From a virus, in the IMG/VR virus record IMGVR_UViG_3300031787_000075, positions 9,533 through 73,532 of that record: 64,000 bases of DNA, one strand, 5' to 3'. The notes beneath the pieces were generated by a model. The model searched no databases. It saw nothing but the letters and a program-made list of their open reading frames with translations, and was not told the origin of the DNA. Position 1 is the stretch's first letter; every line of letters starts with the position of its first letter. Shown here one piece after another: positions 17,411 to 50,600 of this stretch. A program made the translations under genes and the position numbers.

Positions 17411-17429
17411 GTCAATAATAATTTATCCT

Positions 17430-17437
17430 CAAAATTA
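17430..17437 (-). promoter_or_regulatory. Bacteroidota -7 promoter element (TAATTTTG)
   Basis: TAnnTTTG match heading the leftward operon. Confidence 0.6.
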
Positions 17438-17517
17438 ATATTTTTTTGCAAATAAAATACAAGAGGTTATTTTTGACCCGCTTCCCAAAGCAAAAACCAC
17501 GAATGAAAAGATATTTT

Positions 17518-17597
17518 AAATTAAGCCATTCCTTGAACACGTTGGGTTTTCTGTGGACCCTTTGGGAACGTGGGAGAGGGGTGGCTTAATTTTTTTT
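17518..17597 (+). other. Long structured hairpin / terminator-like RNA element
   Basis: AAATTAAGCCA...TGGCTTAATTT outer stem with inner CACGTT/AACGTG and GGGT/ACCC stems, followed by a T-run. Confidence 0.6.
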
Positions 17598-17628
17598 ACA
17601 AAAAAACAATAATATCGGAAAATAATCC

Positions 17629-17659
17629 TTGCAATATATCCGAATTAAGATTATTGTTG
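17629..17659 (+). promoter_or_regulatory. Bacteroidota promoter (TTG-N20-TATTGTTG)
   Basis: -33/-7 spacing fits, with one mismatch in the -7 element; 4 nt before ATG 17664. Confidence 0.5.
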
Positions 17660-17663
17660 CATC

Positions 17664-18155
17664 ATGGAAATACAAGTAGAAAAATCTTTGTCAAAGATTA
17701 AAGAACAAAAAATTTCAATTACAGAATTATTTTTTTTAGAATTAGTTAAAAAGCTTGGAGAGCCTATTGCTGTTAAAGATGTTATGCCTCACATTAAAGA
17801 AGCAAACATGAAGCAAGATACGGTTTACAGGATTTTAAAAAAGCTGGAAAAAAAGGGATTGATAAAATATAAATCTAATCTTACGCCTCCAGATTCTTTA
17901 TATCTAATTATAAGCGAGCCTAGTAAATTACTTAAAATAGGAATAAGCAGTAATCCATTAAAAAGGGCTAAAGATATTTCTTTGGCATCAACTCTTCCAA
18001 CAAAAGTTCTTTATTCTTTCAATGGGCTTTCTCACTTAGAAAAAGAACTTAAATTAAAGTACAAGAACCTAAATATTGGAGGAGAGTGGTTTAATTATTC
18101 AGAAGAAATAGTTAAAGAATTTCAAAACTTAAAAAATAGCACGACAAATGAATAA
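17664..18155 (+). CDS. Winged-HTH plus GIY-YIG (T5orf172-like) protein
   Basis: 'TVYRILKKLEKKGLI' wHTH, then 'LYLI...LKIGISSNPLKR...LEKELK...GEWF'. Confidence 0.75.
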   Translation: MEIQVEKSLSKIKEQKISITELFFLELVKKLGEPIAVKDVMPHIKEANMKQDTVYRILKKLEKKGLIKYKSNLTPPDSLYLIISEPSKLLKIGISSNPLKRAKDISLASTLPTKVLYSFNGLSHLEKELKLKYKNLNIGGEWFNYSEEIVKEFQNLKNSTTNE

Positions 18156-18999
18156 GCAAGAATTTCACATGTTTAACACAGAGGAGGCGAAAGAATTTAG
18201 TATTGAATCCGCAATTCTTCTAAACAACATTAGGTTTTGGTTAAGAAAAAATAAGGCTAACCAAAAAAATATTTTTGAAGGCAAGGTGTGGACTTACAAT
18301 TCTGCAGAAGCTTTTACAATTCTTTTTCCTTACATGAGCAGGACAACTATTTGGAGGAGGTTAGACGAATTGTTTAAAGCAGGAAAGATTTTAAAGGGTA
18401 ATTTCAATGATGATAAAAGGGATAAAACTCTTTGGTTTTGCATAAATGAACCGGAGTTCACTAATCTTTCCAAAATGGATAATAGCAAATCTCAAAATGA
18501 AATCTCCATAGTTCAGGATGAAATTAACATAGTTCAAAATGAACCACCATTACCATATATTAAACCAAATATAAACACAGATAATAATACCCCTATATCC
18601 CCAAAACAAAAAACCGCTTCTGACTACGTCCGCGGTTTTGTTTTGGAATCCAGAACAAGACCTGATGATGGTAAATTAACTCTCCTAAATGATGAAGCTG
18701 TTTCAACAATAAAAAGATTTGAGCACTACTACTACAAAGAAAAGAAAAGGAATATGTCTTTAACGGACCTAGTATTCACAGAAGCTTTTGAAGTAGAATT
18801 AGAATACTTTGGGCAGAAATACCATATCAAATCAATTATTGAGGACGTAAATCACGAAGACTTTAATCCAGTAGTATTTGAAAGAACACTAGCTGCCGCT
18901 AAAAAAATGAATGAATTAGGCTTTGAATGTTTTGAGTTTTACTTTAGCTACCTAAACATAAGAGCAACAAACGTATTCAGAAAGTATTTTAACAATTAA
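18148..18999 (+). CDS. Phage replication initiator / replisome organiser (lambda O-like)
   Basis: 'HMFNTEEAKEFSIESAILL..I.FW...N...EGKVWTYNS...LFPYMS..TI.R.L..L' wHTH and 'DKTLW', followed by a linker containing DNA repeats. Confidence 0.75.
   Translation: MNKQEFHMFNTEEAKEFSIESAILLNNIRFWLRKNKANQKNIFEGKVWTYNSAEAFTILFPYMSRTTIWRRLDELFKAGKILKGNFNDDKRDKTLWFCINEPEFTNLSKMDNSKSQNEISIVQDEINIVQNEPPLPYIKPNINTDNNTPISPKQKTASDYVRGFVLESRTRPDDGKLTLLNDEAVSTIKRFEHYYYKEKKRNMSLTDLVFTEAFEVELEYFGQKYHIKSIIEDVNHEDFNPVVFERTLAAAKKMNELGFECFEFYFSYLNIRATNVFRKYFNN
18467..18545 (+). repeat. Four iteron-like direct repeats (putative origin)
   Basis: CA(A/G)(A/G)ATG(A/G)A cores at 18471, 18493, 18514 and 18535 (spacing 22, 21, 21). 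Confidence 0.65.
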
Positions 19000-19011
19000 T
19001 CACCTAAAATC

Positions 19012-19719
19012 ATGATAAAATTAAATCAAAAGCAAATCAAAAGCCTTAAACCTGGGGTTGGAAAAGTATTGGTAGCACCAGATCGCAGAGTCGATGAAAT
19101 AAATGTTGGCGACAAAAAGTTATACTTTGACCCTACATTCAATTACAACGAACACGCCCCAGTAACAGGTTCCGTAATTTCATTTAACCCTACACCGCAT
19201 TGGAATCACAATCATTACCTTAGTGTTCCATACCTACAAGTAGGTGACAGAGTTATATTCAGTTATCATGAAGGTTCAAAGATTTTAGACCCAAAGTTTG
19301 ACGAAACCATTGTTTGTACCGACACCAATCAAATCTATTTGTTCATTCAATATTTCGAATGTTATGCAAAGGTTTGCCATGAAACAAATAAAATTTATGG
19401 ATTAAATCATTACCATATCTGCTCTCCTGTGCAACGAAATGTTGTTGCCGGCATAGAACTACCACAACACATGAAAAAACGCAACAGCCAAAGCGTTTGT
19501 AAGGTAGAATTTAGCCCAATAGAACCAGTAAGGTACAGAAAAGAGGTTAGTCCAGGACAAAGAGTAGAGCCAGGAAGCTATATCGTATTCGATAAATTTG
19601 GAGATGTGCCGCTAGAATACGATATGCACAGAAGCTTAATGGGTAAATCCGAACTTTTTGCCATAGCACAAAGAGATATTGTTGCCGTTATTGATAACCC
19701 CGAACAGGTAAACACATGA
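19012..19719 (+). CDS. Tandem two-domain GroES-like protein
   Basis: Domain 1: 'LKPGVGKVLV..VTGSVIS..LQVGDRVIF'. Domain 2: 'VAGIELP..VEPGSYIVF..LFAIAQRDIVAVI'. Confidence 0.65.
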   Translation: MIKLNQKQIKSLKPGVGKVLVAPDRRVDEINVGDKKLYFDPTFNYNEHAPVTGSVISFNPTPHWNHNHYLSVPYLQVGDRVIFSYHEGSKILDPKFDETIVCTDTNQIYLFIQYFECYAKVCHETNKIYGLNHYHICSPVQRNVVAGIELPQHMKKRNSQSVCKVEFSPIEPVRYRKEVSPGQRVEPGSYIVFDKFGDVPLEYDMHRSLMGKSELFAIAQRDIVAVIDNPEQVNT

Positions 19720-20207
19720 GAAGCGCTGACATAGAAAAAGCGATTTGGCTTCACTGGGCAAGAAAGCAAAACAGAGTAATCTGCCACAACGTGAGCTGGG
19801 GAATGTTTAACCATGAGTGTGATATCTTGGTCCTAGAACAGGATAACACCTTCACAGAAATAGAAATCAAGGTGTCAAAATCTGATGTCAAAAAAGACCT
19901 GCAGAAACCTCACAAACACGAAAGCAAAAAAATATCAAGACTATACTTTGCCATACCCGAAGACCTATACAGGCCCGATGTTATAGAACTAATACCAGAT
20001 CGCGCAGGAATACTTGTGGTAACAACCAAATTACAGGTACAAAACAAAAGAAAACCTGCCAAACCTAAAACACCATATACTGCCAAAGAAAACGAAATCC
20101 GACAACTTGCATACCTCCTTCAATTCCGATTCTGGAAAGAACGTATCAAAGCCAATAACCTCAACCAAAAACTAATAGACAATAATCAGGTGAAACTAAA
20201 TCTATAA
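19716..20207 (+). CDS. MmcB-like PD-(D/E)XK nuclease family protein
   Basis: 'HECDILVL...EIEIKVSKSD...LYFAIP...AGIL'. Confidence 0.7.
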   Translation: MRSADIEKAIWLHWARKQNRVICHNVSWGMFNHECDILVLEQDNTFTEIEIKVSKSDVKKDLQKPHKHESKKISRLYFAIPEDLYRPDVIELIPDRAGILVVTTKLQVQNKRKPAKPKTPYTAKENEIRQLAYLLQFRFWKERIKANNLNQKLIDNNQVKLNL

Positions 20208-20519
20208 CTAATATTTAGGCGTAGCCTCAAAATTGAAATCCACACACCTTACCTCCTCATACCTATCCCCAACCCTGTACTCGTAATACCAACACCCCTG
20301 CCTCACAAAACTCCCAACCAACTTTACCTCAACACCCTTAAACAAATACCACAGCTTCCGGTCCTGATCCGTATTACGTGGCAACAAAACCTTCCAGTTA
20401 TGCTTGTCCTTCTGCTCCAAACCCTTCCGCTTTACAACACCCATCCTAAAACTCCGAATCCAAATCCAATACATCACCGCCACCACCCAAAACACTACTA
20501 GGTATCCTCGGCAATCCAC
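20208..20519 (-). CDS. Hypothetical protein with N-terminal hydrophobic segment
   Basis: 103-aa ORF converging on 19716..20207. Confidence 0.4.
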   Translation of the reverse strand: MDCRGYLVVFWVVAVMYWIWIRSFRMGVVKRKGLEQKDKHNWKVLLPRNTDQDRKLWYLFKGVEVKLVGSFVRQGCWYYEYRVGDRYEEVRCVDFNFEATPKY

Positions 20520-20859
20520 TCAACTCCTGCATAACCTCAAATGAACTCTTTACCGAAGTCTTAACCTTCTTCTCCTCCTTTGCCTTCACCACCTCAACAA
20601 CCCCCTCCACACGCTCCGGTACCACTCCAAACTCTATCCCGCCAAAACTCTTTACCCTCGTCACCCTATAACCCCTGAACTCATTCTCACCCCTACTCAC
20701 CAAATTCCGCAACGTCCCCGGCCTTACCCCTGCATCCCTCGCGACATCACTCAAACTCCGGTAAACATAAATCCTACCATCACCCAAATGCTGCAAAACC
20801 ACAAACTGCTTGCCCTGGTTCCTATCACTCACCACAACCTCGCCCTTTTTAAACCCCAT
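20446..20859 (-). CDS. HTH (NUMOD1-like) DNA-binding protein
   Basis: 'YRSLSDVARDAGVRPGTLRNLVSRG...GY'. Confidence 0.55.
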   Translation of the reverse strand: MGFKKGEVVVSDRNQGKQFVVLQHLGDGRIYVYRSLSDVARDAGVRPGTLRNLVSRGENEFRGYRVTRVKSFGGIEFGVVPERVEGVVEVVKAKEEKKVKTSVKSSFEVMQELSGLPRIPSSVLGGGGDVLDLDSEF

Positions 20860-21163
20860 ATCTATTACTATTTATTACGCAATATTACCAAATTTTGTAA
20901 TAAATGACAAAAAAACAATGTTACAAAAACCATACCTTATGTAAACGTGTGGCGTGGACCTTGATGAAAATTGATCCGGTCCAAGCAAAATCGCCCGACT
21001 CGAAATCGCGGACCCCTACCCCCAGTTTCAAGGCCAAACGTGTGCAATATCGAACACGAACGCAATCAATAGCCATCGCCTTCAAAAGCACACAAAAGCA
21101 AGTAGGGGAGGGGAGAAGCATAACCCCATAGGATGAAATCCTTCACACCATCCAAAAATATCT

Positions 21164-21191
21164 ACTTAACATAATAATAGTTATGAGGACA
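21164..21191 (-). other. dif-like XerC/XerD recombination site
   Basis: Minus strand TGTCCTCATAA-CTATTA-TTATGTTAAGT: 11-6-11 layout. The XerD arm matches TTATGTTAAAT at 10/11; the XerC-like arm ends in CATAA. Confidence 0.8.
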
Positions 21192-21225
21192 ATCTAACAC
21201 CCATTAGACAGACATTGCACATTAG

Positions 21226-21262
21226 CGTGGAACATATTGCCAAGACAATAGCACGTTCCACG
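21226..21262. repeat. Inverted repeat made of parS-like half sites
   Basis: CGTGGAAC...GTTCCACG with an inner TATTG/CAATA pair. Confidence 0.45.
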
Positions 21263-21268
21263 AATGAA

Positions 21269-21281
21269 TATCAATAACTTA
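21269..21281 (+). promoter_or_regulatory. IHF-consensus site
   Basis: TATCAATAACTTA matches WATCAANNNNTTR exactly. Confidence 0.4.
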
Positions 21282-21361
21282 GGCAGTCAAAACCCGCATT
21301 TTTTGATACCCTGATTTGCCAAATTAGGATATTTCTAGACCATTGCCTATGTTTGTTTTTT

Positions 21362-21925
21362 ATGGACACACAGACAAATAAACCTAATGTAAAACTTCAA
21401 GTTTTGCCTCGTAAACCCTTGACAACAAATAGATTAAACCAAAAAATCCCAAAAAATTATTTCCATTTTGAGGACAACGTGCAAGAGCGTGGGGTTTTGG
21501 ATGGTTTGGTTTGCCCTATTTCTTTGCTTCTGTCGTCTTCTTCTTCTGTCTATCTTTCTCAATACATCTATTTGTGGCAGGACAGCATTAAACAATCAAA
21601 AAAAGCCTATTTTGACGCGTTACCAGTTGACAAGGCAGATAAACATCACGAACTTATAAAGTCATCATTTCAGTTTGTTTATTTCATGGCTTGTCAGCCC
21701 TTCCCTCCTACCACCTTACAACTTACTTCTTTGTATGGCAAAAAGAGTATAAATGTGGGCAGATTAGTATTACTCCGTAAGATAGGCATAGTTTATAAGC
21801 ACCAAGGCGGTGGATGGTCTTTAACCCCCAGTATTTATGCGGTTATCAAGCTAATCAATGACAATGCAATAACCATATTCAACAATAGAATAGAACTATT
21901 GATGCAAAACGACACTATTTTGTAA
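21362..21925 (+). CDS. Putative winged-helix DNA-binding protein
   Basis: 'LVLLRKIGIVYK..GGGWSLTP' resembles a wHTH wing; start taken at ATG 21362. Confidence 0.45.
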   Translation: MDTQTNKPNVKLQVLPRKPLTTNRLNQKIPKNYFHFEDNVQERGVLDGLVCPISLLLSSSSSVYLSQYIYLWQDSIKQSKKAYFDALPVDKADKHHELIKSSFQFVYFMACQPFPPTTLQLTSLYGKKSINVGRLVLLRKIGIVYKHQGGGWSLTPSIYAVIKLINDNAITIFNNRIELLMQNDTIL

Positions 21926-22005
21926 CATTTATTAAATTTATCGGCCTGATTATTAGTGTTTTGTGTTTTTATTACAAAAATATTTGTTTTTGTAATATTT
22001 AGCGC

Positions 22006-22035
22006 TTGCATAGTATAGACTATTGTCTATATTTG
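22006..22035 (+). promoter_or_regulatory. Early promoter (TTG-N19-TATATTTG) overlapped by a palindrome
   Basis: Consensus Bacteroidota promoter; TATAGAC-TATT-GTCTATA inverted repeat at 22014-22031. Confidence 0.7.
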
Positions 22036-22055
22036 TGATACCAAAACAAAACAAT

Positions 22056-22244
22056 ATGAACACACAGAACACAACACTTTACAAGGTTTTTAAGGTTTTC
22101 CGCAAGTCAGGCAGAAGACAAATTTTAAGAGTAAATTTAAGCCTTGAACAAGCCAAGATGCTTGTAAACTCTTACCCTGATAGCAGCCGTTCAATGGTTT
22201 GCTTTGCCTCTCAATCTTCACATATAACCATCGTAAAAAGATAA
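22056..22244 (+). CDS. Small early protein
   Basis: ATG 22056 follows the promoter and an A-rich leader. Confidence 0.55.
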   Translation: MNTQNTTLYKVFKVFRKSGRRQILRVNLSLEQAKMLVNSYPDSSRSMVCFASQSSHITIVKR

Positions 22245-22249
22245 TTATC

Positions 22250-22402
22250 ATGAAAATGAGAACTATATTTTCATCCGTTGCTGCCGCGTTGATGCTAGCA
22301 ATGGCAATGGTTAGCGGTGAATCATTTTTTTTATTTCCCGTTGTACTTAGCGTTGGCGTTGCTGCCTTATTTATTCACGAAGATACACATAAGGAGGCAT
22401 AA
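22250..22402 (+). CDS. Small membrane protein
   Basis: MKMRTIFSSVAAALMLAMAM..., two hydrophobic segments. Confidence 0.55.
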   Translation: MKMRTIFSSVAAALMLAMAMVSGESFFLFPVVLSVGVAALFIHEDTHKEA

Positions 22403-22404
22403 GC

Positions 22405-22983
22405 ATGAAAGCAACTAAAGAACTAAGAGAACGCGCTGAAAGCTACGGAACAGCGCATTTATCAGACATTGAACTTGCCGCGCTTATTGGTTACAAACCA
22501 AAGCCAAATGAAGCCCTTGTATCTTCTGAATTTATTAAACACGTTCATGAACTTTCTAACAGATTTAGAGCGGCAGATTTTGACCTTGCTATGAAGGTGC
22601 AATCTTCAAGGCAGCTATTTGATTACATTACCACGCGCCACACCCTTCAAAACTTATTTGTTGAGCATTTCTATGTTATTGCCTTAAATCGTCAAAATAA
22701 AGTCATTAAAAGCATTAAAATAAGTGAGGGCGGTTTGGATGCTTGCCTTGTTGACCCTAGAGTAATTTTCACGCAATTATTGAGCATTAAAGGATGCACC
22801 ACTTTTGCCCTATTTCACAATCACCCAAGCGGCAATTTAACACCAAGCCAACAAGACATCAACATTACTAAGAAGCTAAAGGAAGGCGGCAAATTGCTAG
22901 ACCTTCACTTATTAGACCACATCATTATTGGAGGCAATAATTTTAATACTTATTTATCACTAGGGGATGAAGGCCATTTGTAA
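22405..22983 (+). CDS. radC: RadC-like JAB-domain protein
   Basis: 'LSDIELAALI', 'EHFYVIALNRQN', 'HNHPSGNLTPSQQD', 'LLDHIIIG'. Confidence 0.9.
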   Translation: MKATKELRERAESYGTAHLSDIELAALIGYKPKPNEALVSSEFIKHVHELSNRFRAADFDLAMKVQSSRQLFDYITTRHTLQNLFVEHFYVIALNRQNKVIKSIKISEGGLDACLVDPRVIFTQLLSIKGCTTFALFHNHPSGNLTPSQQDINITKKLKEGGKLLDLHLLDHIIIGGNNFNTYLSLGDEGHL

Positions 22984-23008
22984 GCCTTCCCCCACAAATA
23001 AACCGATT

Positions 23009-23464
23009 ATGAACACATTTTTTGTAGTTGACATAGCAAATTATAGGGGTTGGATAGAAACCACTATAAACACAGACAAGGCAATAACCGACAACTTGAA
23101 TAATTGCCTTGTGTCGTGGATGGATGGTATGACCTTCGAGCAATACCAAGCCAAACATGGCGGCAAATTATCTATTATCACGCAGGAGGAATACGCTGCA
23201 ATGAGAGCAAAGTATGTTTTAGCCCTTCAGGAAGATTTTAATGAGATTAGCCTAGATAAGTATTATGAGGCATTAAATTGTTTGCCTCCGTTAAGATTTA
23301 CCTCACAATATGGCAAAGAAATGTTTTTTATTGGAGAGTGCTATACAGACAATTTATACCAATGCTATGTAAAAATAGCCGACAAATGTTATACCGCGCT
23401 TCGCGCCATCAACACACCTAGAACCGATATTTTTAACCTTAAATCAATCAATCATGGAAGTTAA
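23009..23464 (+). CDS. Hypothetical protein (DUF1419-like)
   Basis: 'YYEALNCLPPLRF...FFIGE'; the likely start MNTFF follows the radC stop. Confidence 0.45.
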   Translation: MNTFFVVDIANYRGWIETTINTDKAITDNLNNCLVSWMDGMTFEQYQAKHGGKLSIITQEEYAAMRAKYVLALQEDFNEISLDKYYEALNCLPPLRFTSQYGKEMFFIGECYTDNLYQCYVKIADKCYTALRAINTPRTDIFNLKSINHGS

Positions 23465-23777
23465 TCAATTAGTAAAGGACTTTGTAAGCACCTTAAAACA
23501 AGCTAGTGAACATCAAGGCATCGAATATGATTTTGATGAATCCAAGGCATTTTTTATGAGTACCTATAAGGAAGAAATTCCTAAGATTATGGAGGTAATG
23601 AGAACAGACATGGAGGCAGCTAATTTGTTTGGGCAGGACCTTCAAAAAATGATTAAACAAGGCAAGCAATTGCCTGCCTTGGTATCAGCAGCAGGCCAAA
23701 TATCCTATAAGGCCGCAGTTTGTGAATATGTAAATAGATTTTTAGCCACACAAAAGAAAGAGGAGGTAACAGCATGA
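23454..23777 (+). CDS. Hypothetical protein
   Basis: Overlaps both neighbours in the early operon. Confidence 0.55.
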   Translation: MEVNQLVKDFVSTLKQASEHQGIEYDFDESKAFFMSTYKEEIPKIMEVMRTDMEAANLFGQDLQKMIKQGKQLPALVSAAGQISYKAAVCEYVNRFLATQKKEEVTA

Positions 23778-24157
23778 GTACATTATTTAATCAGTTAGTA
23801 TGGCCAAGGGGTGGAAATGTTCCACCCTCCATTGTGTTTCATGAAGACGCGGGGCATGGATGGCTTCAAGTTCCTAGGCATTTATTAGAATCATTGGAAA
23901 TAGCGGAAAAAATATCGGGTTATTCTTATAGTGACCTTGATAATGGATATCTAGAGGAAGATTGTGACCTATTTTTATTTATTCAAGCCCTAGAGGCCAA
24001 ATATGGATTAACAAGAGAAGAATCCATAAGATTTTTCAACGATATACCGAAAGAGTATTCAGAAAGAAGCAAGGTAAGGAGATTAAACCACTACCAATAC
24101 AAGAAAACCACGACAAAAAATCAATTCAGTAATAACCAACAATTATCTTTTTTATGA
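23774..24157 (+). CDS. Conserved phage hypothetical protein
   Basis: 'FHEDAGHGWLQVP...YLEEDCD' motif common in phage early genes. Confidence 0.65.
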   Translation: MSTLFNQLVWPRGGNVPPSIVFHEDAGHGWLQVPRHLLESLEIAEKISGYSYSDLDNGYLEEDCDLFLFIQALEAKYGLTREESIRFFNDIPKEYSERSKVRRLNHYQYKKTTTKNQFSNNQQLSFL

Positions 24158-38424: not shown

Positions 38425-38877
38425 TTAAAATGGCAAATCATCTTCCGGTTCTGAATTTGGAACCAATGATGGCTGTGTTGTTGGATTATCAACCACATAT
38501 TCAGAAGCCTTATTTTCTTGCTGTGGCTTTTGAGAATCGTCTTTCTTGCTGTCTAGCAATAAGATTTCTGAAACCCTTAACTCTAAAATAGCCTCTGCAA
38601 CATTGTTTTTATTCATGTACGCTCTGGCAGAAGCTTTGCCCTCAACCATTACATGAGTGCCTTTTTTTAGAAACTGCGTTATGGCTTGACTCTCATTTTG
38701 ACCAAAAAACTTAGAGCAACTAACCCAAGTGGTTTGCTGCTTTTTCTCTCCAGTCTTTGAATCCTTCCACACCTCTGTTGTGGCAACACTAAAGTTTAGG
38801 ACCACACTTCCGCTTGTTAGCGTTTTTAGGTCGGCATCACCTCCAAGGTGGCCAACAATTCTTAATACATTTCTCAT
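38425..38877 (-). CDS. ssb: Single-stranded DNA-binding protein
   Basis: 'IVGHLGGDA', 'NFSVATTE.WKD', 'LKKGT.V.VEG', C-terminal 'DDLPF'. Confidence 0.95.
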   Translation of the reverse strand: MRNVLRIVGHLGGDADLKTLTSGSVVLNFSVATTEVWKDSKTGEKKQQTTWVSCSKFFGQNESQAITQFLKKGTHVMVEGKASARAYMNKNNVAEAILELRVSEILLLDSKKDDSQKPQQENKASEYVVDNPTTQPSLVPNSEPEDDLPF

Positions 38878-39365
38878 TTTGTTTCCTTTATTTTTTTACA
38901 ATAATTTGCTATTAATAGGGCATCGGCCATGTCGTTGGTGATTTTGATTTTTGGCCATAACTGCTCTGCCCTTTGTTTTAGGTTTCTCTTATGGTCGGTT
39001 TGGCTTTCGGTTTTGGCATCTTTCTTTATTCCATAATACTTCTGCCATGTTTGAGGAACATAAAACTCGGATGGTATGTATGTGGCAGTTAAGAAAGCTT
39101 TTAACTTGCCATTATTCTCTCCAAAAACAAACATGGTTTGAGCGCCCATTTTCCTTGCCTCTCCATCTTCTCCTTTGGCAGGCATGGCCCAAACCTTTTC
39201 CATGACAGCAAAACAATCGTACTTGAATGACAATGCGCTCAAAAACTCATAGATTTCTTGGTCTGTTGCCTTGGCAAATCTTAGGTAAGTTATTTCACCG
39301 CTTTCTGTTATAGCCGCTATCGCTCCACTTGCTCCAGGGTCTATTCCTATATAGCACTTTTCCAT
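38874..39365 (-). CDS. RuvC-like Holliday junction resolvase
   Basis: 'IGIDPGASGAIA', 'MEKV', 'PQTWQK', 'ADALLIA'. Confidence 0.85.
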   Translation of the reverse strand: MEKCYIGIDPGASGAIAAITESGEITYLRFAKATDQEIYEFLSALSFKYDCFAVMEKVWAMPAKGEDGEARKMGAQTMFVFGENNGKLKAFLTATYIPSEFYVPQTWQKYYGIKKDAKTESQTDHKRNLKQRAEQLWPKIKITNDMADALLIANYCKKIKETK

Positions 39366-44825: not shown

Positions 44826-45583
44826 TTCTGTATTAATTTAGGTAAATCTTCGTGAATAGGTGTAGTATCAAATACGTCATGCCATGCCCAAGGATTAAAC
44901 TTATCCATGCCCTTTAGCTTTTTATCGCTATCCATGACGAACACGTCTTCCTGCATGGTTTTGATTTTAGTTGGGTGAATGTATGGGTCACGAACAAATC
45001 CCATGTGGTATATTCTAAGGTGAGGAATACTGGCAGTATTTGTTATTGGCTTTAATGAACCTATGCTTTCGGCATCTCCATGCGCACCATAAATTTTATC
45101 TGATTTAACCAACCTAGTTACTATTGTACTACAAGGCTGTCCATTTTTTGGATGATCTAAATATTGGTATGGCGAACCCCATAAATTAAACCTAGTGAAC
45201 TGGTATTCGTTATACTTGGAATCAGAATCAACTATTCCCCTTAAAACATCGTAGCTGTCTTCATGCAAAATTTCATCTGCTTGCAAGCTAAAAACCCAAT
45301 CGCAATTTCTCATTTTTACTAAATGGTCTATGCCTAAATTGGTGTAATAGCTAAGTCTTAGTTTGCCAATTCTTTTAAAACTATTCCATTCGTAATCGGT
45401 GCAAAATATTCTATCTATGTTTTGAATAGAATTAATAATATCAAATGTTTGGTCCTCGGTTTTGATACAAACCACGCAAACATGGTCGCAAACCTGTTTC
45501 AAGCACTCAATGGCTTGCTGAAATGGGTAATCTAGTTTAACACCATCTCTTATGAACAATACTCCTCCTAATTTATTTTTCAT
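44801..45583 (-). CDS. GT2-like (GT-A fold) glycosyltransferase
   Basis: 'LGG..FIRDG..LDYPF', 'DWVFSLQADEI.HE', 'IYHMGFVR'. Confidence 0.8.
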   Translation of the reverse strand: MKNKLGGVLFIRDGVKLDYPFQQAIECLKQVCDHVCVVCIKTEDQTFDIINSIQNIDRIFCTDYEWNSFKRIGKLRLSYYTNLGIDHLVKMRNCDWVFSLQADEILHEDSYDVLRGIVDSDSKYNEYQFTRFNLWGSPYQYLDHPKNGQPCSTIVTRLVKSDKIYGAHGDAESIGSLKPITNTASIPHLRIYHMGFVRDPYIHPTKIKTMQEDVFVMDSDKKLKGMDKFNPWAWHDVFDTTPIHEDLPKLIQKWAHLRNY

Positions 45584-46943
45584 CGTGCCAACAACATAAA
45601 GGTATTTGTAATCCTAAAATACATGGTTGGCCTTGGGTTCCTCCTTCTATATGCCAACACCCATGATACTCGCATTTGCCTTGCCTAATATCAATATCTG
45701 ATAGGTCTAAATGAATCAATTCAGGCTTAACGCTTCCAAAATAAATTACAGACTTCTTTTTCATAGCCACAGCTAAATGAGAAGGACCGGAATCTATTCC
45801 TATGAAAAATTCGCTATGCCATATAATTGACATAATAGTTGTAATCGAAAGATTAATGACAGGAATAACGCCTTCAACATTATAAACATCCTTATCCAAC
45901 TTTTCGCCATTGCCAATCAATATAACATTGGTTCCTGAATCAACTATCTCCTTGCATATTTTAGCAAAATTATCTACTGGGTTTCTGTAATTCTGCTCTC
46001 TTCTATCAATGTGCATTACGGCATAAGGAAAATCAAATATTCTATTAGTGTCATTCAACTCTATTCTTGGTGGGTTAGCTTTTGGCCTTTCTCCAAATGC
46101 TGCAAAATAAGCCTCGATATGATTTAGGGTTGGCATCATTTCGTATGACATATCCAAATCCACAACTAAATCATAATCTATTTGACTTGTATGTAATCTA
46201 ACCGTATAGGGTTGAAAAGTAAAAACTTGTTCTAGCCCTGGTGTGGTTTCTAAATAAACGGTATAACCTTTTTCGCTAAAATACCTTAATACTGGCTCCA
46301 CTTGAATTACATCTCCAAGCGCTCCCATTCTCTTAACCAAAACATTCTTGCTTGCTATTTTGTGAAATGTGCCATGAAAGCCAAATGTTTTACCTTTAGG
46401 AGGATTAAGTTCATAGGAAAATTTACTGGCAATATGCTCTGGGGCAAATTTACACCCGCTAATTTCTAAGCTGCCTCTCCATAACCTGCCAATACATTCA
46501 TCCTCCGGACCTAAAACAGGCTTATCCTCTGTTAATTCAAGTAGCTTTTTACTCCTTAAACTAAAACCTCCATTACCTACGTTTCTACCATCAATGTAAA
46601 GCCATGGCGCTCCAATGTAATCGTATTCTAAAAATTCGTTGGACCATTCGCTGCCATTAATTACAAATCCATCATGCTGAATCACCAATACATGACTATA
46701 ATCCAAGTTCAAGCTGTTTAACAGGTGCGGCATCTTGTTAATAATAAACCTGCTGTAATCATTAGCATCTACAATTTTGTCTATTTTGTAGGTAATTGTG
46801 TTGGTAACACTAATACTAAGGTCCGTAAACCAAACCACCTTTTGAGGTCGAATGTGTTTTAGGGTTTGATTGATTGCATATACGCAATCGCTATAATTCT
46901 TTGTGTCAGCAATGACGACAACTATTTGTTTTAAATCAATCAT
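45573..46943 (-). CDS. DUF5672 plus GT9 glycosyltransferase fusion
   Basis: N-terminal 'IQHDG...YDYIGAPW...VGNGGFSLRSK...ED...FGFH'; C-terminal 'RMGALGDV...FIGIDSGPSHLA'. True start MIDLKQ at 46943. Confidence 0.85.
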   Translation of the reverse strand: MIDLKQIVVVIADTKNYSDCVYAINQTLKHIRPQKVVWFTDLSISVTNTITYKIDKIVDANDYSRFIINKMPHLLNSLNLDYSHVLVIQHDGFVINGSEWSNEFLEYDYIGAPWLYIDGRNVGNGGFSLRSKKLLELTEDKPVLGPEDECIGRLWRGSLEISGCKFAPEHIASKFSYELNPPKGKTFGFHGTFHKIASKNVLVKRMGALGDVIQVEPVLRYFSEKGYTVYLETTPGLEQVFTFQPYTVRLHTSQIDYDLVVDLDMSYEMMPTLNHIEAYFAAFGERPKANPPRIELNDTNRIFDFPYAVMHIDRREQNYRNPVDNFAKICKEIVDSGTNVILIGNGEKLDKDVYNVEGVIPVINLSITTIMSIIWHSEFFIGIDSGPSHLAVAMKKKSVIYFGSVKPELIHLDLSDIDIRQGKCEYHGCWHIEGGTQGQPCILGLQIPLCCWHDEK

Positions 46944-46947
46944 ATTG

Positions 46948-47029
46948 TGGGGAGGACAGGATTCGAACCTGCACGATGTTTTAGTTGTCGTTACCAACCT
47001 TACTACCACCATTCCACATCTACCTCCCC
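46948..47029 (-). ncRNA. Degenerate tRNA-like element
   Basis: Acceptor GGGGAGG/CCTCCCC+A and T-arm GCAGG-TTCGAAT-CCTGT; no normal D-arm; hairpin GGTTG-GTAACGA-CAACT; no encoded CCA. Confidence 0.65.
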
Positions 47030-47694: not shown

Positions 47695-50600
47695 CTACAT
47701 TTTTTTAGGTAATTTTCCATAAATAGATTTGATTTTATCTTTTTGGGCAGGAATTAAAGCTTTATTGGTCATTAACTTATCTAAGAAATCTTTGGCCTGA
47801 ACGTACTGCATAGGAAGGTTTCTGTTAAATGCGTACAACAATTCAAACCATTGTAATTTCTGCTCTGGTGTTATTGACTCTTTTTCGCTTAAATCATCAA
47901 CTATGTAAGATAATTCCTTAAGGTTTTCGCCAAACCTGAATTGCTTATAAGAATCCTCGAATTGCTTTGCCTCTACTGGAAACTCTTTCTTAAACTTTTT
48001 CATGTTTTCAGGCTTTACATAATCTGCAGGAGTTATGTGGTCGTCATTGAACATCTTTTCTATTTCTAGCATGTTAACGCCTTTTGACTCTAGCATAGGA
48101 TTAAAGCTGTTTTTGTGTTTTGTAACGGCTTCTAATTGCTTCCAAAACAAAGCGTATTCTCTACCTCTTTGCCATGTATTTTTAGTGGCAAAACGATATG
48201 GATTTTCAAGTAGCTTTCTTTCGCTATCGCTATTTAGTTCTAATGCAAATCTAGCGTTTGCACCAAACTGCGCTTTTAAGAAATAGTCTGTCTTCATAGG
48301 GCTTACACCAAACTTTTCTCCCATCCACTTAGCAAACTCGCTTGTGTTCTTGTTTTGTTGGTATTGACTCTCCATATTAGCGTACTCTCCTGTTACAATA
48401 GGCATTAATGTAGGGTAAGATTTAACACTTAATAAAGTATTAATTGTTGGAGAAACAGCTGTTGGAATCATTTGCAAAGCATTTGCTCCTGCCATATCGC
48501 TATCTCCAGTCAAAATACCTTCCAAAATACCTTCCGCTTGTTTAACTCCTCCTGGCAAACCCTCTCTTATTGGTGAAAAATATTGGCTTGGAGTGTATTT
48601 GAATGGTGCTTTTTTGTTTTTCTCATAAGCATAAGAAAAGGCAGCCATTTGAGAAATACCTGTGATCGCTGTAATAGATTCAGGAACCCTTACCCTAATC
48701 CATTTCAATTCAGGTCCACCCCATATAAATACATACTTGGCAAACTCTTCTGATGGTTTATTGGCCATTGCAGCAATATCATCATCATCTCCTCCTCCAT
48801 TAAACACCTGCATAATACTATACGCACTTATAAATGCTAATGTGGCAGCTAATCCTCCTCCTCGTTTTGGATTTTTCTTTATCGACTCTATGTTTTTTAG
48901 TAGCGCCTGCAATGATGCGTTCCAATAAACGTGTGACCTATAAGCTACCCTTCCAGCTCTACCAAACATTAAACCTCTTCTGTAAAAAGGGGCAGAAACA
49001 TTGGCTGCCATAAATAATGCTGTACTATCGTCATAACCTAAGTCTATTGCTCTTTTAAATTCAGCAAACCTAGTCATAATCTCTGTGGCATTAACAGGAG
49101 CGGCCAAAACATCAATGGCGGTATCAAAAACTTGTTTAGCCTTGGTTCCAATTGTTTTCTTAGGAGAAACTCTGTTAATTATTTCACCTACGGTTTCTGT
49201 TCTGTCAAAATTAAACGCCTTAGAAGCATTGAATCTATCCCCTGCTAGTGCTAAATACTTTTTAAGCAACTCTTCACCTTGCGGGGTGTCTATCTTCATT
49301 CCCAACTCGTTTAAAACAGTTCTCCATTGCGTGAATACTTGTATAGCATCTCCGGCACCAATGAAATCTCTTTTTCCTGTAGTTGAGTTTATAAAGGCAG
49401 ATATTTGGTCAATGGTAAAGTTTCTTAACGCAAATGTCGGGTTGGCGGCTGTGGTCATTAATCCAAACACATTAGCACCTGCAAACAATATCTTTTCCCA
49501 TGCACCATTCATGTCTTCCGGGCTTAATGTTGTGGCTAAAGCCTTAATCCAATCCGCTGCCTCGTAATACTGCTTGCTTCCATTTATGTAAAAACTAACA
49601 TACCCTCTGTTCTCTAAGTGGCCAAATGTAGGAACGCCACCAATCATAACAGCGGTCTTAGGTACTCTAATAAAATCTTGGTTTAGCTGTCTTTTACTTA
49701 TGCCCATGTCCTCACCATGCTCGTTAACGAATTGGGCAAATTTCATCCAAAACATATTGTTGTAACCCTTCATGATGGTTTTAGGAATATGTAAAATCAT
49801 TGCCTCTAACGGACCAATGAAAGACTTTCCTGAACTACCAGTTCTCTTTTTAAACTGTGTTAGGTTTCCTCCTTGTGAGTTTCCTCCCCCTGTCATTAAA
49901 TCGTCATGGATATATCTTTGGAAGGAAGCATAGTCTTTATTTTTAGACCATTCCTTATAAGACTCTTCACTTATTAAGCCGGTATTCCTAGCGACCTCTA
50001 ACAAATGCTCATTTATCTTATCAAAAATGGCAGTAGCATCTTTAAACTCTTTCTCAAAGGCAGCTATGCCTGCATTTACCTGCCTAATATCAAAATTATC
50101 GTTGTTTACTATGGTTCTGTACTCAACAAATTTATCAAGAAGCCTTTTAGCTATTTGGGCTTGAACAGGAGTCATTGCATCAGGGTCCGGAAAGTTTGCC
50201 ATATACATATCGTAATCGTTCTTAGCATCAACCATTCTATTATAATCCCCTTTTGCCCTCCTGTTGATTAGGTATTGATTAAATACATCTCTAACAAACT
50301 CTATATCCCTATCATTCTTTTTTGCGATCCTACCTAATTCATCCAAAATACTATTAACACTAAGTTTTTCATATTTGTAGGTTCCATTTTTTTGAATAAT
50401 GGCCATCATTTGCTTTCCATTTAACCATGCCTGGGCAATAGGTCCGCTCTGCATATTGGTAAAATAAGCAATCTCTAGGCTTTCATCACTCAATGCGGTA
50501 TCAGCTAATTCATCCAATGTCCTAAATGCGCTGCCGGTGTCGAATTGCAATGCCATATACATTTTAAATCCTACATCAGACACGTTTACGTTTTTCCATG

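What the first reader, a model, noticed from the sequence alone, without database searches (positions are those of the whole stretch)
21164..21191. dif-like site in a crAss-like phage with no visible integrase
Seen: a 28-bp 11-6-11 site with a near-perfect XerD arm in the main strand-switch intergenic region. Known: XerCD/dif is exploited by IMEX elements for integration and by plasmids for dimer resolution. Inference: with the iteron-bearing initiator and no integrase in the window, this phage may integrate at host dif or persist as a circular phage-plasmid resolved by host XerCD. That would be an unexpected lifestyle for this virion type.
Basis: partly seen in the sequence, partly recalled or inferred. 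Interest (0 to 1): 0.75.

Follow-up and report, generated by a model that had tools for sequence, protein, structure and literature searches.

The report
Host-type dif site in phage clade
A group of large tailed phages of Bacteroidota that have no integrase all carry, at one fixed place, a copy of the bacterial chromosome-untangling site dif, which suggests that they borrow the host's Xer recombinases.

Summary
The 28-bp site is real. On the minus strand it reads TGTCCTCATAA-CTATTA-TTATGTTAAGT (XerC arm, 6-bp centre, XerD arm). Its 14-base core is found once, against 0.01 expected. The XerD arm is identical to that of many Bacteroidota chromosomal dif sites, and the best whole-site match is 24 of 28.

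Of 18 fully fetched relatives (TerL 31-40% identical), 15 carry one such site. It always lies upstream of TerL, on the TerL strand, at a divergent gene switch. Positions that were not used to find these sites also score like host dif.

The whole 73.5-kb genome has no integrase or serine recombinase, and only 1 of 26 relatives has one (Xer-like). No integrated or plasmid copy of the clade turned up in 1,335 Bacteroidota genomes, PLSDB or 160 contigs. More distant kin are integrase-bearing prophages in tRNA genes.

Best reading: a functional XerC/XerD target. It most likely keeps a circular phage replicon monomeric, and reversible integration at host dif is the main rival. The phage is not demonstrably crAss-like. 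Binding and recombination are untested.

The parts
21164..21191 (-). dif-like core site. XerD-type arm at 21164-21174 (minus strand TTATGTTAAGT), 6-bp central region at 21175-21180 (CTATTA), XerC-type arm at 21181-21191 (TGTCCTCATAA).
   Evidence: sequence, uniqueness, chance. (identity to Bacteroidota dif). (conserved, syntenic, same orientation in relatives). (unconstrained positions score like host dif across 19 phage sites).
20914..21163 (-). Conserved non-coding block on the XerD-arm side. Read on the minus strand it runs AG, then a CCCCTCCCC/CCCCTACCC box (plus strand 21105-21113), GCTTTT/CGCTTTATTT repeats (21084-21099), then a GGGGGTAGGGG/GGGGGGCGGGT box (21013-21023). Function unknown; it could be a leader, promoter or operator region of the minus-strand gene.
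   Evidence: alignment A5 of 12 phages, with invariant columns in each box. (no covarying RNA pairs). (no Rfam match). (positions in the window, and a TAnnTTTG-like motif at 21160 on the minus strand).
21362..21925 (+). 187-aa ORF that starts 171 nt from the XerC arm and is transcribed away from it. Probably a winged-helix (MarR/PadR-like) DNA-binding protein. It is the positional counterpart of the ~170-240-aa 'adjC' ORF of relatives.
   Evidence: an ORF at 140-212 nt in 12 of 16 genomes; the family is alignable, but G000's member is only 12-18% identical. (PadR E=2.4e-4 in 1 of 13 members). (model mean pLDDT 60, C-terminal half 68-91; best Foldseek hits are MarR-family, all weak, E 0.018 upward). 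(no PHROG or NCBIfam family).
20446..20859 (-). 137-aa ORF on the XerD-arm side, transcribed away from the site, with an HTH-like stretch. It is the positional counterpart of the ~82-130-aa 'adjD' ORF of relatives.
   Evidence: translation. (family A4; G000's member 11-19% identical). (only HTH_Tnp_1 at E=0.047, not significant). (no PHROG).
18148..18999 (+). Replication initiation protein (DnaD-like). It contains a 21-nt x2.5 repeat at 18492-18543, which is a candidate origin.
   Evidence: phrog_11233 E=1.2e-32; phrog_6493 E=1.6e-15. (tandem repeat).
38874..39365 (-). RuvC-like Holliday-junction resolvase. Context only: it could resolve junctions left by a one-strand Xer exchange. This is inference.
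   Evidence: phrog_1770 E=2.8e-22.

Best explanation
The 28-bp element is a genuine XerC/XerD-type recombination site carried by the phage. I put this at about 0.7. Host XerC would bind TGTCCTCATAA and host XerD TTATGTTAAGT, and they would exchange strands across the 6-bp centre between two copies of the site.

The role I think most likely, at about 0.4, is the one loxP-Cre plays for phage P1 and that cer, psi or dif play for plasmids and secondary chromosomes. Recombination between copies on one molecule would turn dimers of the circular phage replicon back into monomers. Such dimers should be frequent, because the phage encodes RecT/RecE-like recombinases. This would matter during a non-lytic, repressor-controlled episomal or carrier state, with no phage-encoded recombinase needed.

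Shown: the sequence, its likeness to host dif, its conservation, and the absence of a phage recombinase. Inferred: Xer binding, recombination, the episomal state, and the role of the flanking DNA-binding genes as its switch.
For: 1. Chance is excluded. The exact core gives 1 found against 0.01 expected.

2. The site matches the host type.
- CATAA-N6-TTATGTTAAGT marks dif in at least 120 genomes, many of them Bacteroidota. The best whole-site identity is 24 of 28, in two Mucilaginibacter and one Paludibacteraceae genome.
- 308 of 401 Bacteroidota genomes hold BATAA-N6-TTATGTNAANT, mostly once.
- All 5 genomes tested have a XerD equivalog, 4 of them over the curated cut-off, plus a paralog.

3. 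The site is conserved.
- Hits at <=2 mismatches occur in 11 of 18 relatives against about 2.5 expected from shuffles. Hits at <=1 mismatch occur in 4 of 18 against about 0.15 expected.
- 15 of 18 fetched relatives have one full site. Three further distinct sites lie in metagenome contigs.
- All 16 sites, G000's included, lie upstream of TerL on the TerL strand at a divergent switch.

4. Positions not used for finding the sites look like host dif. Over 19 phage sites the outer XerC arm averages 3.16 bits against a null of -2.86, and the largest of 5000 resampled means is -0.15. The centre averages 2.11 bits against -5.67, with a largest resampled mean of -2.28.

5. The two arms are conserved but unlike each other (GnCCYATAA against TTATGTTAAAT). 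That fits a XerC+XerD pair and not a homodimeric regulator.

6. The XerD-arm variants seen in the phages (..TTAAGT..TTAAAT..TCAAAT..TAAAAT) all occur among host dif sites.

7. The phages lack their own recombinase. G000 has none. Only 1 of 26 relatives has one, and it is Xer-like: XerA 2e-39, XerC 5e-27, XerD 6e-25, all below the cut-offs.

8. Evidence for resolution rather than integration.
- The centre is the most variable part among the phages, with 13 different hexamers in 19 sites. YTATTA recurs beside three different XerD arms. Host centres are few by comparison: TTTATA, TTAATA, TTAACA, TATAAA.
- No integrated copy was found.
- The assembly closes on itself with a 142-nt overlap, 141 of 142 identical.
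- RecT, RecE and RuvC-like genes are present.

9. A strain variant changes the site only at its naturally variable position, CATAA to TATAA.
Against: - No experiment or read shows Xer binding or recombination.
- No plasmid form was found: PLSDB gave no TerL match, and there is no ParA (PF13614) or ParB (PF02195) in the genome.
- No clade member was found in 1,335 Bacteroidota genomes, whether as a chromosome insert or as a separate contig.
- A phage that packages from concatemers has no obvious need for dimer resolution.
- G000's own outer XerC arm and centre are not individually host-like (p=0.27 and 0.064).
- The site is one block of a roughly 280-nt conserved non-coding region between two putative DNA-binding genes. 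Conservation alone therefore does not single out Xer.
- The conserved flank lies on the XerD side. From recall, cer and psi accessory sequences lie on the XerC side.
- One complete clade member (G016) and one 86% complete (G015) lack both the site and the block.
- Five cultured, more distant kin lack it.
Confidence: 0.4

Rival explanations
1. The phage is an IMEX-type temperate phage. Host XerCD recombine the phage site with the chromosomal dif, so the 73-kb genome integrates as double-stranded DNA (VGJphi type) and can excise again. In this clade the dif-like site would replace the integrase/attP module of related prophages.
For: - All the evidence that the site is a Xer target applies here too.
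- There is no integrase.
- More distant kin are true prophages with their own integrase. G919 holds a 71-kb prophage in tRNA-Lys, with the repeat TCCCAGCTGGATCACAA at both ends and an integrase at 2746157-2747464. G900 holds another with an integrase.
- In G919 the integrase and attP lie beside a divergent 98-aa/205-aa gene pair. In our clade the matching position holds the dif-like site (positional only, hmmsearch found no homology).
- Most phage centres keep TT at the XerC side, as host centres do.
- Precedent: int-type and dif-type members occur within one group of double jelly-roll phages (PMC12715192, passages). Microviruses of Bacteroidetes and PhiCjT23 of Flavobacterium are proposed to use dif (PMC3091885 and PMC9719478, passages). 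VGJphi has a single dif-like attP whose centre differs on the XerD side (PMC5357621, passages).
- Extra lone XerD-arm copies lie near the site in 6 of 16 genomes, 8 copies against 0.79 expected. They could be scars of past exchanges.
Against: - No integrated clade member was found. TerL profile hits were 0 of 401 (phylum sample), 0 of 132, 3 of 401 and 5 of 401. All 8 hits are distant: integrase-bearing prophages or phage-only contigs. The positive control was 5 of 5.
- All 80 IMG/VR and all 80 metagenome contigs are at most 78,468 bp.
- Contigs in 3 runs bridge the site in the free form, and no loose end at the site is listed, though 25 loose ends were not shown.
- No genome among 185,579 species has both arms identical to the phage's.
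- Both arms are near consensus. From recall of dif-flanked cassette excision, an insert flanked by two working dif sites should be excised at cell division.
- The phage centres are diverse and mostly unlike host centres.
Confidence: 0.25
2. The element is not a Xer target. It would be part of a conserved regulatory or replication region, bound by the flanking phage winged-helix or HTH proteins or read by a phage RNA polymerase. Its likeness to dif would then be convergent or mimicry without recombination.
For: - The site is the first block of a roughly 280-nt conserved non-coding region with further invariant boxes.
- It sits between two divergently transcribed putative DNA-binding genes.
- 'AG' follows the XerD arm in 18 of 19 phage sites but in only 12 of 32 host sites.
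- Extra lone copies of the XerD-arm sequence occur nearby in 6 of 16 genomes, as operators often do.
- A TAnnTTTG-like motif abuts the arm in G000.
- The clade is seen only as free phage contigs.
Against: - The likeness to host dif extends over all three parts, including positions not used for the search.
- The arms are conserved yet asymmetric, which is unlike operators of dimeric winged-helix proteins.
- Arm variants track those of host dif.
- The spacer is exactly 6 bp in all 19 sites.
- The one relative with a recombinase has a Xer-like one.
- The TAnnTTTG motif is not conserved in relatives.
Confidence: 0.2
3. The site is a Xer target used for another end. It could drive site-specific exchange between co-infecting genomes at the border of two gene modules, as with pdif modules. 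It could also recruit or titrate host XerCD/FtsK during infection.
For: - There is a single site per genome, exactly at a module border.
- Gene content on the two sides differs widely between relatives while the site stays.
- YTATTA centres are shared by phages with different arms.
Against: No direct evidence. No relative has two sites flanking a module. Titration would need many copies and has no precedent known to me.
Confidence: 0.1

Closest known systems
Chromosomal dif of Bacteroidota (XerC/XerD target)
   Same: 11-6-11 layout, ATAA/TTAT inner dyad and an identical XerD arm. The XerC arm has the same type (T-rich start, C at positions 5-6, YATAA). The centre is AT-rich.
   Different: It sits on a 73.5-kb phage genome rather than at a chromosome terminus. 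The centre CTATTA was not seen among the host sites listed. It is followed by a phage-specific conserved block.
Plasmid multimer-resolution sites cer/psi and plasmid-borne dif-like sites; loxP-Cre of phage P1 (functional analogue, recalled)
   Same: A single core site on a circular extrachromosomal replicon, with recombination supplied in trans. For cer and psi the supplier is host XerCD (PMC5357621, passages).
   Different: No accessory-sequence signature was found on the XerC side, and the spacer is 6 bp, not 8 as in cer. No plasmid state has been shown. P1 brings its own recombinase.
IMEX phages: VGJphi, CTXphi and TLCphi; microviruses of Bacteroidetes; PhiCjT23-like and dif-type double jelly-roll phages
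   Same: No integrase and a dif-like site in a non-coding region beside regulatory genes. Int-type and dif-type members occur within one wider phage lineage.
   Different: Those are small elements, mostly ssDNA or tailless. The review calls the 57-kb gonococcal island 'unusually long'. Here the element is a 70-78-kb tailed dsDNA phage, and no integrated copy has been found.
Integrase-bearing prophages of Sphingobacteriales related to this phage (G919, G900)
   Same: Shared gene order of TerL, portal, capsid-region and giant-protein genes, plus replication genes, at 23-40% identity.
   Different: They carry a ~440-aa tyrosine integrase. G919's sits in tRNA-Lys; G900's attachment site was not determined, but its dif lies about 0.74 Mb from the prophage. 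They have no good dif-like site: one 1-mismatch match in G919 and none in G900.

Membership tests
XerC/XerD-type dif core site | Two 11-bp arms with partial dyad symmetry around a 6-bp (6-8) central region | tested here: met
   11-6-11 with an ATAA/TTAT inner dyad in G000 and in all 19 phage sites. Anatomy as in PMC5357621.
XerC/XerD-type dif core site | XerD arm matches that of chromosomal dif of the presumed host phylum | tested here: met
   11 of 11 to the arm in at least 120 genomes, including 32 labelled Bacteroidota. 308 of 401 Bacteroidota genomes carry the degenerate form.
XerC/XerD-type dif core site | XerC arm and centre resemble host dif | tested here: inconclusive
   Over the clade, yes: means of 3.16 and 2.11 bits, both above all 5000 resampled nulls. 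For G000 alone: outer arm p=0.27, centre p=0.064. Best arm identity is 9 of 11.
XerC/XerD-type dif core site | Bound and recombined by XerC and XerD | not testable with these tools
   The host is unknown and no assay is possible. XerD equivalogs are present in 5 of 5 Bacteroidota genomes with this arm.
IMEX (integrative mobile element exploiting Xer) | No recombinase of its own | tested here: met
   PF00589 and PF00239: 0 matches at E<=1 in the whole genome. 25 of 26 relatives have no PF00589.
IMEX (integrative mobile element exploiting Xer) | Found integrated at host dif, flanked by dif-like repeats | tested here: not met
   No clade member was found in 1,335 Bacteroidota genomes sampled. No contig exceeds phage size among 160, and no junction appeared in 4 runs' contigs. 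These are samples only: a full scan of all genomes was not possible.
Plasmid multimer-resolution site (cer/psi type) | Accessory sequences of about 160-190 bp beside the XerC arm (recalled) | tested here: inconclusive
   140-212 nt of non-coding DNA lie on the XerC side in 12 of 16 genomes, but with little conservation. The conserved block is on the XerD side.
Phage-plasmid | Replication initiator plus partition system; seen as a plasmid in isolates | tested here: not met
   An initiator is present. ParA (PF13614) and ParB (PF02195) are absent at E<=0.1. There is no TerL match in 72,556 PLSDB records. Other partition types were not searched.
Crassvirales (crAss-like phages) | Hallmark proteins (TerL and others) similar to those of Crassvirales | tested here: not met
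   TerL tblastn against 50,697 phage records gave 87 hits, none Crassvirales. Nearest are Elemovirus (26%), Pachyviridae and Pervagoviridae. Portal and capsid were not tested against Crassvirales.

The most novel reading that the evidence does not exclude
This would be the first clade of tailed dsDNA phages (66-78 kb) that exploit host XerCD. Within one phage lineage an integrase/attP module (the tRNA-targeting prophages of Sphingobacteriales) would have been swapped for a host-type dif site. These phages would then integrate reversibly at the chromosome terminus, or ride as Xer-resolved episomes, with the divergent winged-helix/HTH gene pair around the site acting as the lysogeny switch.
Probability: 0.3. 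Interest if true: 0.85.

Novelty: new variant of a known kind. Interest (0 to 1): 0.75.

Why it matters
Xer exploitation is known for small ssDNA or tailless phages, genomic islands and plasmids. Four full-text searches found no paper describing a dif-like site in a tailed phage or a crAss-like phage. The passages I read place the known cases among filamentous, micro- and double jelly-roll viruses.

A conserved host-type dif site in many uncultured 66-78-kb Bacteroidota phages without integrases would point to a hidden non-lytic lifestyle. That could be an episomal carrier state or reversible lysogeny, in a phage group that looks lytic by gene content. This bears on the long-standing puzzle of how Bacteroidota phages persist with their hosts.

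It also offers a host-prediction handle, because arm variants track host dif. And it gives a simple testable system: a 28-mer plus two host proteins.

Tried and rejected
Searches that found nothing:
- Close relatives. Megablast of 19000-24000 against phages gave no match. Single-protein locus searches with the initiator and the RadC-like gene found none.
- Same arms in IMG/VR: none.
- Both arms in 185,579 species genomes: none.
- The XerD-side flank plus arm of G000 in metagenome contigs: none. The window's own record may be left out of these collections.
- Rfam on 19500-23000: nothing at E<=1.

Readings rejected or left weak:
- A structured RNA in the conserved block: RNAalifold gave 13 pairs and no covariation, so rejected.
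- Repeats around the site: no iterons in G000's intergenic region.
- The tally at <=3 mismatches in relatives (20 of 25 records) is not evidence by itself, because the reversed control pattern matched about as often. Two of the 11 hits at <=2 mismatches (G003 at 57341, G012 at 251) are not the syntenic site.
- Five cultured distant kin (elemoC, MW202828, phi13:2, Panino, phi38:1) had no exact match. The 1-mismatch matches in 2 of the 5 do not look like dif.
- Phage-size contigs in genomes of the order of G031 (G988:C21, 71,370 bp with a 39-nt end overlap; G1279:C8; G1072:C20; G971:C354) are distant kin without a dif-like site.
- G919's chromosomal dif lies 34 kb from its prophage. I take this as coincidence, because the prophage ends are tRNA-Lys repeats.
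- Flanking proteins: no PHROG or NCBIfam family. Pfam hits are weak only, and the fold matches to MarR proteins are weak (E>=0.018).

Not done or not available:
The supplements of Kono et al. 2011 (PMC3025954) and of the PhiCjT23 paper (PMC9719478) may list Bacteroidota or Flavobacterium dif sequences that I could not see. Figures with dif alignments in PMC3091885 and PMC5357621 are not held.
Full report
WHAT IS THERE.
Window 21164-21191 reads ACTTAACATAA TAATAG TTATGAGGACA on the plus strand. On the minus strand this is TGTCCTCATAA CTATTA TTATGTTAAGT, an 11-6-11 site in XerC-arm, centre, XerD-arm order. It is unique in the window at up to 3 mismatches, with 0 of 100 shuffles matching. Its 14-base core CATAA-N6-TTATGTTAA occurs exactly once against 0.01 expected, reached by 1 of 100 shuffles. 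With one mismatch allowed the figure is unremarkable: 0.20 expected, 19 of 100 shuffles.

The site lies in a 494-bp non-coding stretch (20860-21352). On one side are two minus-strand ORFs (20208-20859) and on the other are plus-strand genes from 21353 or 21362. The largest strand switch of the genome is elsewhere, at 17411-17663.

THE GENOME.
The window is bases 9533-73532 of a 73,532-bp IMG/VR virus record rated 100% complete. Its ends overlap by 142 nt, 141 of 142 identical, so the assembly closes on itself.

It encodes:
- a portal, TerL and a virion protein;
- a DnaD-like replication initiator at 18148-18999;
- a primase/helicase, a Dda-like helicase, and RecT- and RecE-like proteins;
- SSB, a RuvC-like resolvase, RNase H, an exonuclease and a methyltransferase;
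- a 5405-aa ORF.

No tyrosine or serine recombinase domain is found in any frame at E<=1. No ParA (PF13614) or ParB (PF02195) is found.

TerL finds 87 phage records, all below 60% identity, and none is a Crassvirales record. The best hits are Flavobacterium elemo phages at 26%, then Cellulophaga, Maribacter and Tenacibaculum phages. So this is a podophage-like virus of Bacteroidota, but the label 'crAss-like' is not supported by TerL.

IS IT DIF-LIKE BY THE HOSTS' STANDARD?
No genome of 185,579 species has both arms identical. Many of these are Mucilaginibacter, Saprospiraceae, Flavobacteriales, Prevotellaceae, Algoriphagus and other Bacteroidota. The best matches to the phage site are 24 of 28: TTTTCTCATAA TTAATA TTATGTTAAGT in two Mucilaginibacter and one Paludibacteraceae genome. 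Sixteen of those 28 positions were fixed by the search pattern.

In an even sample of the phylum, 308 of 401 genomes hold BATAA-N6-TTATGTNAANT, mostly once. The usual forms are TATAA TTTATA / TTAATA / TTAACA / TATAAA followed by TTATGT[T/A/C]AA[A/G]T. Five such genomes all have a XerD equivalog, 4 of 5 above the curated cut-off, and a second Xer paralog. Krupovic and Forterre reported xerC and xerD in Bacteroidetes and dif-like ends of microvirus proviruses (PMC3091885, passages). Kono et al. predicted dif in 19 of 19 Bacteroidetes (PMC3025954, passages).

CONSERVATION IN RELATIVES.
A TerL search gave two relatives at 40% identity. A two-sequence profile then gave 200 relatives, of which the best 80 were kept. 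G001 is collinear with the window's genome. It carries TTGTCCGATAA TTAACA TTATGTTAAAT in the matching divergent region.

I scanned 25 further records. At <=3 mismatches the reversed control pattern matched about as often, so that tally means nothing on its own. Tighter thresholds tell a different story:
- At <=2 mismatches, 11 of 18 fetched relatives have a hit against about 2.5 expected from shuffles. Two of these 11 are not the syntenic site.
- At <=1 mismatch, 4 of 18 have a hit against about 0.15 expected.

A loose expression, NATAA-N6-TT[AG]TGTNAANN, finds one good site in 15 of 18 fetched relatives. The three without are G002, a fragment that starts just past the place; G015, 86% complete; and G016, complete. 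G015 and G016 also lack the neighbouring conserved block. Two more sites were seen in G021 and G023, and three more distinct ones in metagenome contigs.

All 16 sites, G000's included, lie upstream of TerL, on the TerL strand, at a divergent gene switch. G004 fits this only by wrapping around its contig ends, which are flagged as terminal repeats.

At positions the search did not constrain, 19 phage sites score like host dif under a matrix built from 32 labelled Bacteroidota sites:
- Outer XerC arm: mean 3.16 bits against a null mean of -2.86. The largest of 5000 resampled means is -0.15.
- Centre: mean 2.11 bits against -5.67. The largest resampled mean is -2.28.
- G000's own values are modest: p=0.27 for the outer arm and 0.064 for the centre.

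The phage XerD-arm variants all occur among host dif sites. Five cultured, more distant kin have no such site.

A strain variant in run X5 has 7 differences within 21097-21214. The one inside the site (21185 G>A) turns CATAA into TATAA, which is the commonest host form and the one variable inner position.

SURROUNDINGS.
The site is the first block of a roughly 280-nt conserved non-coding region on its XerD side. The order is AG, a CCCCTACCC box 32-55 nt on, one or two CGCTTTATTT repeats, a GGGGGGCGGGTnCGCGATTTCGATTT box, and a further conserved stretch. There is no covariation for an RNA fold and no Rfam family.

On the XerC side, 140-212 nt away in 12 of 16 genomes, a 170-240-aa ORF is transcribed outwards. 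Its family aligns as a winged-helix protein. One of 13 members hits PadR at 2.4e-4. G000's member folds with a confident C-terminal winged helix, and its best but weak structural matches are MarR-family repressors (E 0.018 upward).

On the XerD side an 82-130-aa ORF with an HTH-like motif is transcribed outwards. Its Pfam hits are not significant.

Extra lone copies of the XerD-arm sequence lie within 400 nt in 6 of 16 genomes, 8 copies against 0.79 expected. G000 has none.

LIFESTYLE TESTS.
Integration and plasmid carriage both predict copies in bacterial assemblies. The TerL profile recovers 5 of 5 phage records at E<=1e-129. In bacterial genomes it found:
- 0 of 401 in an even sample of the phylum;
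- 0 of 132 in the order of G030;
- 3 of 401 in the order of the Mucilaginibacter genome;
- 5 of 401 in the order of the Saprospiraceae genome.

All 8 hits are distant, with E between 1e-14 and 1e-80. I examined six of them.

Two are prophages inside chromosomes, syntenic with the clade. G919's is 71 kb. It is bounded by the repeat TCCCAGCTGGATCACAA at the 3' end of tRNA-Lys and at 2817318, with a ~440-aa integrase beside it. G900's also has an integrase. Their chromosomal dif sites lie elsewhere.

Four are phage-only contigs without a dif-like site. One is 71,370 bp with a 39-nt end overlap.

Further negative results:
- None of the 80 IMG/VR contigs or the 80 metagenome contigs kept (of 115 relatives) is longer than 78,468 bp.
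- PLSDB has no match.
- Contigs of runs X2, X3 and X5 bridge the site in the free arrangement, and no loose end at the site is among the 23 listed. Another 25 were not shown.
- Only 1 of 26 relatives has a tyrosine recombinase. It is a 277-aa Xer-like protein 15 kb from that phage's rather degenerate site.

READING.
Chance is excluded. Conservation at 31-40% TerL identity shows that the site functions.

I put the odds that it is a Xer target at about 0.7, for five reasons:
- The likeness to host dif covers both arms, the exact 6-bp spacing and the AT-rich centre.
- The arms are conserved but unlike each other, as for a XerC plus XerD pair.
- The arm variants are those of host dif.
- The phages lack a recombinase.
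- The single exception carries a Xer-like recombinase.

The main doubt is that the site belongs to a larger conserved regulatory region between two DNA-binding genes, so a phage protein could be what reads it (about 0.2).

Among Xer-dependent roles I favour multimer resolution of a circular phage replicon (0.4) over integration at host dif (0.25). The centre, which must match between partners, varies freely among the phages and is mostly unlike host centres. No integrated copy was found. Two near-consensus flanking sites should be excised readily (recalled). And the phage's own recombination genes should generate dimers.

Four things keep the integration rival alive. The lineage has integrase-type prophages whose int/attP lies at the matching position. 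Double jelly-roll phages show int-type and dif-type members within one group (PMC12715192, passages). VGJphi has a single-site, divergent-centre attP (PMC5357621, passages). And my genome samples cover only a small part of the phylum. No plasmid evidence exists either, so the preference is weak.

NOVELTY.
Searches for dif or Xer together with crAss-like, Caudovirales/Caudoviricetes, tailed phage or phage-plasmid listed no paper that describes a dif-like site in a tailed phage. I read passages of PMC3091885, PMC3025954, PMC9719478, PMC5357621 and PMC12715192, and for the rest saw only search listings. Known Xer-exploiting viruses there are filamentous, micro- or double jelly-roll viruses. I file this as a new variant of a known kind.

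Noticed in passing
window 20914-21163 (minus strand); alignment A5: A roughly 250-nt conserved non-coding block adjoins the XerD arm in 12 aligned phages. It has a CCCCTACCC box, CGCTTTATTT repeats and a GGGGGGCGGGTnCGCGATTTCGATTT box. The CCC and GGG boxes form an invariant long-range inverted repeat. There is no covariation, no Rfam family, and the function is unknown.
   Followed up: partly
window 47695-63912 (minus strand): A 5405-aa ORF. Its middle third matches phrog_10691 (E=4.9e-250, unknown function, profile of 3925 positions) and methyltransferase-like PHROGs. Relatives and related prophages have giant ORFs of 1400-5580 aa.
   Followed up: partly
window 18492-18543: A 21-nt unit repeated 2.5 times lies inside the replication-initiator gene. 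It is a candidate origin of the kind that sits within an initiator gene.
   Followed up: no
G005:C1:9632-10465 (L309:1177-2010): This is the only relative of 26 with a tyrosine recombinase. It is 277 aa and scores best against XerA, XerC and XerD models, below their cut-offs. The same phage has the most degenerate dif-like site (GTGACTGATAA TTATAA TTGTGTTAAAT).
   Followed up: partly
G919:C1:2745900-2817334; G900:C1:~6288000-6359000: Prophages of about 70 kb in two Sphingobacteriales-order chromosomes are syntenic with this phage clade. Each has a ~440-aa integrase. G919's is inserted in tRNA-Lys with a 17-nt repeat at both ends. They show that the wider lineage is temperate.
   Followed up: partly
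G988:C21 (71,370 bp), G1279:C8 (69,950 bp): These are phage-only, genome-sized contigs of distant kin inside bacterial genome assemblies of the order of G031. G988:C21 has a 39-nt exact end overlap. They may be binned free phage or episomes.
   Followed up: partly
L123:1391-1406 (G001); also G003, G004, G006, G012, G018: Extra lone copies of the XerD-arm sequence lie 75-202 nt from the main site on its XerC side, in either orientation. In total there are 8 copies in 6 of 16 genomes against 0.79 expected. None occurs in the window's phage.
   Followed up: partly
Bacteroidota genomes G031, G121, G223, G247: Some genomes hold 3-6 exact matches to the dif pattern. In G247 two lie 63 nt apart, and in G190 and G198 pairs lie 180-550 nt apart. 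These may be arrays left by small Xer-exploiting elements.
   Followed up: no
window 46947-47029 (minus strand): A tRNA-Val (anticodon AAC) overlaps the start of the 479-aa ORF at 45573-47012, so that ORF's true start is probably further downstream.
   Followed up: no
window 20001-22000: This stretch has the strongest GC skew in the window (-0.349) and the highest G+C (0.404). It coincides with the minus-strand islet and the C-rich conserved block.
   Followed up: no
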